A DNA stretch of 648 nucleotides from Escherichia coli (GTDB lineage: Bacteria; Pseudomonadota; Gammaproteobacteria; Enterobacterales; Enterobacteriaceae): NCBI RefSeq assembly GCF_003334385.1, contig NZ_QOWN01000155.1, one strand, 5' to 3'. The position numbers and the translations under genes were made by a program. How positions within the stretch are numbered: the stretch's first letter is position 1; the number at the start of each line of letters is the position of its first letter. Under the pieces are notes generated by a model. It saw only the letters and a program-made list of their open reading frames with translations. It was not told where the DNA came from and ran no database searches. Below, piece by piece: positions 1 through 648 of the stretch.

Positions 1-648
1 ACAGGCACGGGCACAGAACGCGCAGTATCTGAGCGAACGCCTTAAGGACCAGGCAGCCTTTTATGCCGAATCGGATGTGCAGCGTGCGGACTGGCAGAAA
101 GGGCTGCAGGAGGGGCTCAGTAACTGGGTGGACAATGCATCCGATTACGCCTCTCAGGCAGCACAGCTGGCAACGGAGGGGATTTCAGGACTGGTGAATA
201 ACATCACGGAGATGCTGAACGGAAACAAAGTGGAATGGCGCAACTGGGCCTCATCCGTACTGCAGGAAATATCAAAAGTTCTTATGAATGCGGCCATTGT
301 CAACGGAATTAAGACGGCGGCAAACGGTATGTCCGGTGCGGGAGGATTTATTGGCAGCATTGGTGACTGGCTGGGCGGTGCGGTGGCCAATGCAAAAGGC
401 GGCGTGTATACCTCGGCAAACCTGAGCGCGTACAGCAACAGTATTGTGGATACGCCCACGTACTTTGCCTTTGCAAAAGGGGCCGGGCTGATGGGGGAAG
501 CCGGACCTGAAGCCATTATGCCCCTGACCCGGGCGGCGGATGGCTCGCTGGGCGTACGCGCGGTGGGCAGTATGAACGGGAGTGCGGGTCTGGTGTATTC
601 CCCGGTCTACCACATCGCCATTCAGAATGACGGGGCCAACGGTCAGAT
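1..648 (+). CDS. Phage tail tape measure protein (lambda gpH-like), internal/C-terminal fragment; partial at both ends, codon phase begins at nt 2 (complete codons 2..646)
   Basis: Seen in sequence: the +2 frame is open across the entire window (215 codons, no stop), whereas the +1 frame hits TAA at 43-45. Codon usage is GC-rich at third positions with frequent CTG/CAG/GCG, typical of enterobacterial genes. From recalled knowledge: the translation has a QA-rich helical region with aromatics at 11-residue spacing, a Gly-rich hydrophobic segment (AANGMSGAGGFIGSIGDWLGGAVANA) and a C-proximal 'HIAIQNDGANGQ' block resembling lambda gpH's 'HVVINNDGTNGQ' region. No start or stop codon of the gene lies in the window. 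Confidence 0.88.

What the first reader, a model, noticed from the sequence alone, without database searches (positions are those of the whole stretch)
26..127. Aromatic residues at strict 11-residue (33-nt) spacing in the helical part
In the +2 frame translation, Tyr9 (nt 26-28), Phe20 (nt 59-61), Trp31 (nt 92-94) and Trp42 (nt 125-127) are spaced exactly 11 residues apart within a Gln/Ala/Glu-rich segment. Periodic aromatics at 11-residue intervals have been described as a characteristic of tape measure proteins and fit an extended helix with hendecad periodicity. The pattern breaks after Trp42 (position 53 is Ala), possibly marking the end of the ruler-like helical region.
Basis: partly seen in the sequence, partly recalled or inferred. 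Interest (0 to 1): 0.4.

Follow-up and report, generated by a model that had tools for sequence, protein, structure and literature searches.

The report
Aromatic stripe in tape-measure helix
The four evenly spaced aromatic residues are real, but they are the greasy face of one long helix in the conserved tail end of an ordinary lambda-type phage tape measure protein, not a set of repeated ruler marks.

Summary
In frame +2, Tyr9, Phe20, Trp31 and Trp42 sit exactly 11 residues apart. In full-length homologues the run gains one upstream member (F830-Y841-F852-W863-W874 of a 1080-residue protein).

The window is the C-terminal part of a lambdoid E. coli prophage tail tape measure protein, 95-98% identical in DNA to annotated genes, and it passes the NCBIfam TIGR01541 cutoff.

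At spacing 11 the run is unlikely by chance (P about 0.005). Allowing any spacing from 2 to 40, it is unremarkable in the window alone (P = 0.14).

The rest of the protein shows no 11-residue aromatic periodicity. There is no 33-nt or 11-residue tandem repeat, and the published patterns for periodic-aromatic tape measures do not match. The TP901-1 control is strongly periodic.

Only Trp31 and Trp42 are conserved family-wide (96% and 92% aromatic). Tyr9 is not (27%).

The run lies on a predicted 76-residue helix whose hydrophobic period is 3.63 residues per turn, not the heptad 3.5. That seam continues past Trp42 as Ala53 and Leu64. Trp42 therefore does not mark the end of the helical region.

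Verdict: an ordinary structural feature of a known protein, of low interest.

The parts
2..646 (+). Partial coding sequence (215 codons, open at both ends) of a lambda-type tail tape measure protein. It corresponds to residues 833-1047 of a 1080-residue homologue.
   Evidence: Open frame. 95-98% DNA identity to annotated tape measure genes of Stx phages and E. coli prophages. TIGR01541 scores 178.5 bits against a cutoff of 104.75. PHROG 1716, E = 2.7e-106.
26..28 (+). Tyr9 codon (homologue Y841), a weakly conserved member of the stripe.
   Evidence: Aromatic in 27% of 119 homologues, with Ala the commonest residue. Aligns to Ala607 in lambda gpH and Lys736 in T1 gp38.
59..61 (+). Phe20 codon (homologue F852). 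The neighbouring Tyr21 (nt 62-64) is the better conserved aromatic.
   Evidence: F852 column is 48% aromatic and Y853 column 72%. Lambda has Thr618-Trp619 here and T1 has Tyr747-Tyr748.
92..94 (+). Trp31 codon (homologue W863), a nearly invariant Trp at the start of the Tape_meas_lam_C core.
   Evidence: Trp in 104 of 120 homologues and aromatic in 96%. At least 90% conserved in alignments A1 and A2. Aligns to lambda W629 and T1 W758.
125..127 (+). Trp42 codon (homologue W874), a conserved aromatic position.
   Evidence: W 48, Y 48 and F 14 of 120, that is 92% aromatic and 100% hydrophobic. Aligns to lambda W640 and T1 Y769.
158..193 (+). Continuation of the same 11-spaced seam with aliphatic residues: Ala53 (nt 158-160) and Leu64 (nt 191-193).
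   Evidence: Stack by 11. Column 885 is T/A/V. Column 896 is 93% hydrophobic, M/A/L.
2..214 (+). Window part of one long predicted alpha-helix (homologue residues 828-903) that carries the stripe.
   Evidence: AlphaFold2 gives helix 828-903 in model 1, and 828-861 plus 863-903 with a break at D862 in model 2. Family-mean hydrophobic period is 3.63, P<0.003.
89..304 (+). Equivalent of the Pfam Tape_meas_lam_C (PF09718) core, window residues 30-101.
   Evidence: PF09718 hit at residues 862-933 of the homologue, E = 1.2e-17.
218..229 (+). Asn-Gly-Asn-Lys turn (window residues 73-76) that ends the long helix. It holds a conserved Gly/Asn column.
   Evidence: Column 907 is G in 93 and N in 22 of 120 homologues. 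Both models place a loop here.
323..403 (+). Glycine-rich hydrophobic stretch after the helical part. This, not Trp42, is the real end of the helical region.
   Evidence: Sequence. Aligns to the Gly-rich region of lambda gpH, about residues 706-735. [quoted passage not shown]

Best explanation
The four aromatics (five in full-length homologues) are successive positions of one hydrophobic seam along one face of a roughly 76-residue alpha-helix. That helix belongs to the conserved C-terminal module (TIGR01541 / Pfam Tape_meas_lam_C) of a lambda-type tail tape measure protein.

Three helical turns are about 10.8-11 residues, so residues at i, i+11, i+22 and so on stay on the same face. The seam has a period of 3.63 residues per turn, which gives a nearly straight helix-helix interface rather than a heptad coiled coil.

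Inferred arrangement: the N-terminal members (F830, Y841, F852/Y853) pack against the preceding helix (794-822, with conserved F810) in a helical hairpin or three-helix unit. The two family-wide residues (Trp31 = W863, Trp42 = W874) open the Tape_meas_lam_C core and most likely make contacts between subunits, or with the downstream helix, in the oligomeric tape measure inside the tail tube.

That every member is aromatic at exactly 11-11-11 is a peculiarity of this subfamily. It sits on top of a general amphipathic pattern and is not an array of duplicated ruler units.

Shown: identity of the protein, periodicity, conservation, absence of repeats. Inferred: which partner the seam contacts.
For: Identity.

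One continuous predicted helix holds all members, with pLDDT of 90 or more over residues 800-859.

Hydrophobic period is 3.60-3.63, with almost no power at 3.5, both in the single sequence (P about 0.005) and in family-averaged hydrophobicity (P<0.003).

The seam continues as A885 and L896 and ends at a conserved Gly turn.

W863 and W874 are 96% and 92% aromatic in 120 representatives. Lambda has W629/W640 and T1 has W758/Y769 at these positions.

Runs of at least 4 at spacing 11 occur in 12 of 116 representatives, 11 of them at the equivalent site. All 11 are among the 20 highest-scoring representatives, at 50-95% identity to the window protein. Runs of at least 3 at spacing 11 occur in 57 of 116, against 6-26 for the other spacings tested, except spacing 10 with 46.

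There is no repeat array: no 33-nt tandem repeat, no global lag-11 signal and no match to the Belcaid patterns.
Against: No solved structure covers this region. Lambda gpH is modelled only for residues 818-849 and T1 gp38 only for 921-956.

The AlphaFold2 models are monomers. pLDDT falls to 65-83 around W863/W874.

Aromatic identity on the seam is still more regular than permuting residues among hydrophobic positions predicts (P = 0.002-0.007). Some aromatic-specific selection may therefore exist that the plain amphipathic-helix account does not explain.
Confidence: 0.7

Rival explanations
1. The run is a short instance of the periodic Trp/Phe 'tape marks' described for TP901-1, p2, staphylococcal and clostridial tape measure proteins. 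In those, aromatic residues every 11 (or 11-11-18) residues are proposed docking points for the tail assembly chaperone, which would be gpG/gpGT in lambdoid phages.
For: The spacing is exactly the published 11 residues, in the right protein class (PMC3271669; PMC5099701). At the prespecified spacing P = 0.0045, or 0.00035 in the full-length homologue. Weak 11- and 22-offset self-similarity is present in residues 808-939 (z = 2.7-3.7).
Against: There are only 5 members, one of them Tyr, whereas the published patterns need 7 [FW] positions; neither pattern matches. The protein-wide lag-11 z is 1.3-1.7, against 5.4-5.7 in TP901-1. There are no tandem repeats in DNA. The run lies in the conserved C-terminal module, not in a repeat region. 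Y9 and F830 are not conserved. In TP901-1 itself, replacing one repeat with Ala did not impair infection.
Confidence: 0.1
2. The strict regularity is essentially coincidence. Two conserved tryptophans happen to be 11 apart, and two non-conserved aromatics extend the run by chance in this lineage.
For: Over any spacing from 2 to 40 the window gives P = 0.14. Y9 is aromatic in only 27% of homologues and F830 in 6%. The better conserved aromatics are the neighbours Y831 and Y853, which give spacings of 22 and 10 rather than 11. Lambda gpH has no run longer than 2 at spacing 11.
Against: The 5-long run in the full-length protein has P = 0.014 even over all spacings. The family-level aromatic profile has autocorrelation peaks at 11, 21 and 22 and a best period of about 10.2 (P = 0.024). 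All members fall on the hydrophobic face.
Confidence: 0.15
3. The Trp/Tyr-rich amphipathic helix is a membrane-interface element. After ejection it would help the tape measure protein insert into, or line, the envelope-spanning DNA channel, lying next to the Gly-rich hydrophobic stretch that follows.
For: Lambda gpH* is reported to form a trans-envelope channel, and a weakly predicted membrane segment lies at gpH 691-712, just downstream of the aligned region (PMC12617516). Trp and Tyr are typical of membrane interfaces (general knowledge). The helix is strongly amphipathic.
Against: There is no direct evidence. The same amphipathic pattern is expected for any helix bundle. The AlphaFold2 monomer places the N-terminal half of the stripe in a confidently packed soluble helical unit.
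Confidence: 0.05

Closest known systems
Bacteriophage lambda gpH and lambdoid/Stx-phage tail tape measure proteins (NCBIfam TIGR01541 tape_meas_lam_C; Pfam PF09718)
   Same: Same family, and the window passes the curated TIGR01541 cutoff. Homologous loci have the same gene order, with the tape measure gene followed by M, L, K, I and J homologues. Trp31 and Trp42 correspond to lambda W629 and W640.
   Different: Lambda gpH (853 residues) has Ala607 and Thr618 where the window has Tyr9 and Phe20. Its local ladder is W619-W629-W640, at spacings of 10 and 11, and it has no run longer than 2 at spacing 11. The homologue here is longer (1080 residues) and has an HK97-type central domain, PF06120.
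Tape measure proteins with 11- or 11-11-18-residue periodic Trp/Phe repeat arrays (TP901-1, p2, Staphylococcus and Clostridium prophages; Belcaid 2011, Mahony 2016)
   Same: Same protein role and the same 11-residue aromatic spacing, consistent with one face of a long helix.
   Different: Those are long arrays: 29 proposed repeats in TP901-1, with lag-11 z = 5.4-5.7 and lag-40 z = 6.1. They form a repeat region whose deletion shortens the tail. Here there are 5 positions, no tandem repeat and no protein-wide periodicity, and the site is a conserved module.
Phage T1 gp38 tape measure protein (PDB 9L9P)
   Same: The homologous C-terminal region has Tyr747-Trp758-Tyr769 at 11-residue spacing, aligned to Phe20-Trp31-Trp42.
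   Different: Lys736 stands at the Tyr9 position. Only residues 921-956 are resolved in the structure, so it gives no structural information on the stripe.

Membership tests
Lambda-type tail tape measure protein (TIGR01541 / PF09718) | Sequence match to the curated family model above its cutoff | tested here: met
   TIGR01541 scores 178.5 bits against a cutoff of 104.75 on the window protein. PF09718 has E = 1.2e-17 at residues 862-933 of the homologue.
Lambda-type tail tape measure protein (TIGR01541 / PF09718) | Position in a siphovirus tail gene cluster, upstream of the gpM, gpL, gpK, gpI and gpJ homologues | tested here: met
   Seen in homologous loci L001, L002 and lambda L003. The window itself is too short to show its own neighbours.
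Lambda-type tail tape measure protein (TIGR01541 / PF09718) | Protein length determines tail length | not testable with these tools
   This needs deletion mutants and electron microscopy.
Periodic-aromatic repeat tape measure proteins (Belcaid 2011 patterns) | Seven [FW] residues in a row at spacing 11, or at 11-11-18 | tested here: not met
   The homologue has 0 matches to either pattern. TP901-1 matches pattern 2. The run here is F-Y-F-W-W only.
Periodic-aromatic repeat tape measure proteins (Belcaid 2011 patterns) | Protein-wide excess of aromatic pairs 11 residues apart | tested here: not met
   z = 1.3-1.7, and -0.3 without residues 821-880, against z = 5.4-5.7 in TP901-1.
Periodic-aromatic repeat tape measure proteins (Belcaid 2011 patterns) | Tandem 11-residue (33-nt) sequence repeats | tested here: not met
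   Tandem Repeats Finder finds only a 12-nt, 2.2-copy array elsewhere in the gene. No direct repeats at spacing 33 occur in the window. There is only weak offset-11/22 similarity, z = 2.6-3.7.
Hendecad-type (11/3) or straight helical bundle | Hydrophobic period near 3.6-3.67 rather than 3.5 over a long helix | tested here: met
   Best period is 3.63 for residues 828-903 (family mean, P<0.003), with power 0.54 at 3.5 against 7.2-7.4 at 3.6-3.67. The single sequence gives 3.60-3.62.
Hendecad-type (11/3) or straight helical bundle | Parallel oligomeric bundle with the seam in the core | not testable with these tools
   Only monomer AlphaFold2 was available, and no solved structure covers the region.

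The most novel reading that the evidence does not exclude
The aromatic ladder, anchored by the nearly invariant Trp31 and Trp42, could be a specific functional device of lambda-type tape measure proteins. It might be an inter-subunit aromatic zipper that sets the register of the hexameric gpH* filament or channel, or the docking strip for the gpG/gpGT chaperone. It would then be a previously undescribed counterpart of the Gram-positive phage 'tape marks' inside the conserved C-terminal module.
Probability: 0.12. Interest if true: 0.45.

Novelty: already known. Interest (0 to 1): 0.12.

Why it matters
It matters little beyond annotation. The gene is a well-known lambdoid tape measure protein, and the spacing follows from an amphipathic helix with a straight hydrophobic seam.

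One modest point is useful. Two tryptophans (lambda W629 and W640) and the seam around them are strongly conserved in a part of gpH that no cryo-EM map has yet resolved. They are reasonable targets for mutagenesis, or landmarks for assigning sequence to the unassigned gpH* density in the distal tail tube.

Tried and rejected
- DNA-level 33-nt periodicity or tandem repeats: none.
- RNA families in the window: none.
- Alternative ORFs on both strands: the longest is 120 aa. All lie inside a gene whose +2 frame is conserved, and none has support.
- Solved structures covering the stripe: lambda 8IYK and T1 9L9P model only the last 30 or so residues. PDB 25vf matches residues 30-198, but I could not find which residues are modelled, and no paper search for 25vf was run.
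- Foldseek of the model against PDB: only generic helical hairpins, E > 0.3.
- Foldseek against BFVD: only other tape measure proteins, with low TM-scores.
- Siponen 2009 (PMC2632072) is not held in the library, so its claims are cited through Belcaid 2011 and Mahony 2016.
- A literature search for residue-level mapping of lambda gene H deletions found nothing usable.
- A heptad coiled-coil reading is rejected, because the power at period 3.5 is near zero.

Full report
**Observation.** The +2 frame is open over the whole window, 215 codons. The codons at nt 26-28 (TAT), 59-61 (TTT), 92-94 (TGG) and 125-127 (TGG) encode Tyr9, Phe20, Trp31 and Trp42, each 11 residues from the next. Residue 53 is Ala. 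The window protein has 17 aromatic residues in 215. Tyr21 and Tyr49 are off-phase aromatics within the same stretch.

**Chance.**
- Shuffling the window protein gives a run of at least 4 at spacing 11 in 0.45% of trials, and a run of at least 4 at any spacing from 2 to 40 in 14%.
- Holding all hydrophobic positions fixed and permuting only their identities gives 0.2-0.7%.
- In the full-length homologue the run extends one step upstream (F830-Y841-F852-W863-W874). There P = 0.00035 at spacing 11 and 0.014 over all spacings.

The run is therefore real and modestly non-random, mainly if spacing 11 is accepted as a prior hypothesis.

**What the sequence is.**
- The window is 95-97% identical in DNA to tape measure genes of Stx-converting and other lambdoid phages.
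- It is up to 97.8% identical to prophage genes, with matches in 1264 of 5426 complete E. coli genomes.
- In Stx2a_WGPS2 (L002) the gene encodes 1080 residues and the window corresponds to residues 833-1047. Downstream lie homologues of lambda M, L, K and I.
- Pfam finds TMP_3 (83-272), Phage_HK97_TLTM (395-686) and Tape_meas_lam_C (862-933).
- NCBIfam TIGR01541 covers residues 725-1043, and the window alone scores 178.5 bits against a cutoff of 104.75. PHROG 1716 matches at E = 2.7e-106.

The whole aromatic run thus lies inside the conserved C-terminal module. Trp31 sits at the very start of the Pfam core.

**Is it the known periodic-aromatic feature of tape measure proteins?** The literature describes arrays of Trp/Phe every 11 residues (or 11-11-18). 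They occur in about 5% of tape measure proteins and are proposed as chaperone anchors. The search patterns require seven [FW] residues (PMC3271669; PMC5099701). I tested the defining features.
- The homologue matches neither pattern.
- Its lag-11 aromatic autocorrelation is z = 1.3-1.7, and -0.3 when residues 821-880 are removed.
- The TP901-1 protein, used as a positive control, gives z = 5.4-5.7 at lag 11, 6.1 at lag 40, and matches pattern 2.
- There is no 33-nt tandem repeat in the gene or the window. Protein self-similarity at offsets 11 and 22 is weak (z = 2.6-3.7).

So this is not a member of that repeat class.

**Conservation.** A search of 1.84 billion representative proteins found 10,097 relatives. 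In an alignment of 120 representatives spanning this stretch, the columns behave as follows.

| Column (homologue numbering) | Window residue | Aromatic fraction | Note |
|---|---|---|---|
| F830 | upstream of window | 6% | neighbour Y831 is 80% |
| Y841 | Tyr9 | 27% | Ala is commonest |
| F852 | Phe20 | 48% | neighbour Y853 is 72% |
| W863 | Trp31 | 96% | Trp in 104 of 120 |
| W874 | Trp42 | 92% | W 48, Y 48, F 14 |

- Lambda gpH has Ala607, Thr618-Trp619, Trp629 and Trp640 at these positions. T1 gp38 has Lys736, Tyr747, Trp758 and Tyr769.
- Runs of at least 4 at spacing 11 occur in 12 of 116 long representatives, 11 of them at the equivalent site. All 11 are among the 20 highest-scoring representatives, at 50-95% identity to the window protein.
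- Runs of at least 3 at spacing 11 occur in 57 of 116. Other spacings give 6-26, except spacing 10 with 46.
- The family-level aromatic profile has autocorrelation peaks at 11, 21 and 22 and a best period near 10.2 (P = 0.024).

**Structure.** AlphaFold2 was run on residues 790-940 with 41 sequences and on residues 715-945 with 35 sequences.
- The longer construct gives 743-789, 794-822, 828-861, 863-903 and 911-941, with a one-residue break at D862.
- All five aromatics, plus Ala885 and Leu896, lie on the one long helix.
- pLDDT is 90 or more across roughly 800-859 and declines to 65-83 around W863/W874.
- The hydrophobic period of this helix is 3.60-3.62 in the single sequence (P about 0.005). 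It is 3.63 for family-averaged hydrophobicity (P<0.003), with almost no power at the heptad value 3.5.
- On a wheel with 11/3 residues per turn, all members fall at a single angle, about 40 degrees from the hydrophobic moment.

The 11-residue spacing is therefore what a straight hydrophobic seam on a long helix produces. The seam does not stop at Trp42. It continues with aliphatic residues for two more steps and ends at the Gly turn (window residues 73-76). A further helix runs to about residue 106, before the Gly-rich stretch at nt 323-403.

**Mechanism (inferred).**
- From the helix lengths, the loop at residues 823-827 and the high confidence, F830, Y841 and F852/Y853 probably pack against the preceding helix, which carries the conserved F810 (73% aromatic).
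- The conserved Trp pair extends beyond that unit. It likely contacts other subunits or the downstream helix, which carries conserved aromatics at 911 and 914.
- I could not inspect coordinates, and only monomers could be modelled.
- No experimental structure covers the region. Lambda gpH is modelled for residues 818-849 and T1 gp38 for 921-956. Foldseek gave nothing informative.
[quoted passage not shown] The aligned lambda segment (residues 607-640) lies near the C-terminal end of gpH*. A role in oligomer register or in the ejected channel is therefore possible but untested.

**Rivals.** I considered three: genuine chaperone 'tape marks' (0.10), mostly coincidence (0.15), and a membrane-interface helix (0.05). 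Their evidence is given in the structured fields.

**Verdict.** The protein is a tape measure protein, and the segment is a hendecad-like helix. It is not the periodic repeat feature, and Trp42 does not mark the end of the helical region. The gene and family are already known, and the feature is an ordinary property of an amphipathic helix with two strongly conserved tryptophans. Interest is low.

Noticed in passing
window 494-526: Encodes GEAGPEAIMPL. The same motif (GERGPEAIMPL) aligns in the tape measure chain of PDB 25vf, so it appears to be a conserved C-terminal tape measure motif of unknown role.
   Followed up: no
window 323-403: Glycine-rich hydrophobic stretch NGMSGAGGFIGSIGDWLGGAVANAKGG. 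It aligns to the Gly-rich part of lambda gpH, about residues 706-735. PMC12617516 places the gpH to gpH* cleavage in this glycine-rich region, and a weakly predicted membrane segment (gpH 691-712) overlaps its start.
   Followed up: partly
L003 1543-4104 (lambda gene H): Lambda gpH shows an excess of Trp/Phe pairs 18 residues apart (z about 3; run 601-619-637) and a local W619-W629-W640 ladder. Eighteen residues is five helical turns, the other spacing reported for tape measure proteins.
   Followed up: partly
L001 1-2835: In E. coli IAI39 the homologous tape measure gene is truncated at its N-terminus, next to an IS629 remnant and a group II intron reverse transcriptase gene.
   Followed up: no
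window 1-648: The best match among 5426 complete E. coli genomes is only 97.8% identical, and among phage records 96.8%. The exact source is therefore not in these collections.
   Followed up: no
window 200-574 (residues 67-191): Partial, sub-cutoff similarity to the NCBIfam RcGTA-type gene transfer agent tape measure model (74 bits against a cutoff of 220). This suggests a shared C-terminal module.
   Followed up: no
window 89-91 (Asp30, homologue D862): The longer AlphaFold2 model breaks the long helix for one residue exactly where the Pfam Tape_meas_lam_C match begins. The shorter model keeps the helix continuous.
   Followed up: partly
window 53-77 and 138-162: A 25-nt inverted repeat, 72% complementary, with 60 nt between the arms, inside the coding sequence. 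There is no Rfam match, so it is probably chance.
   Followed up: no
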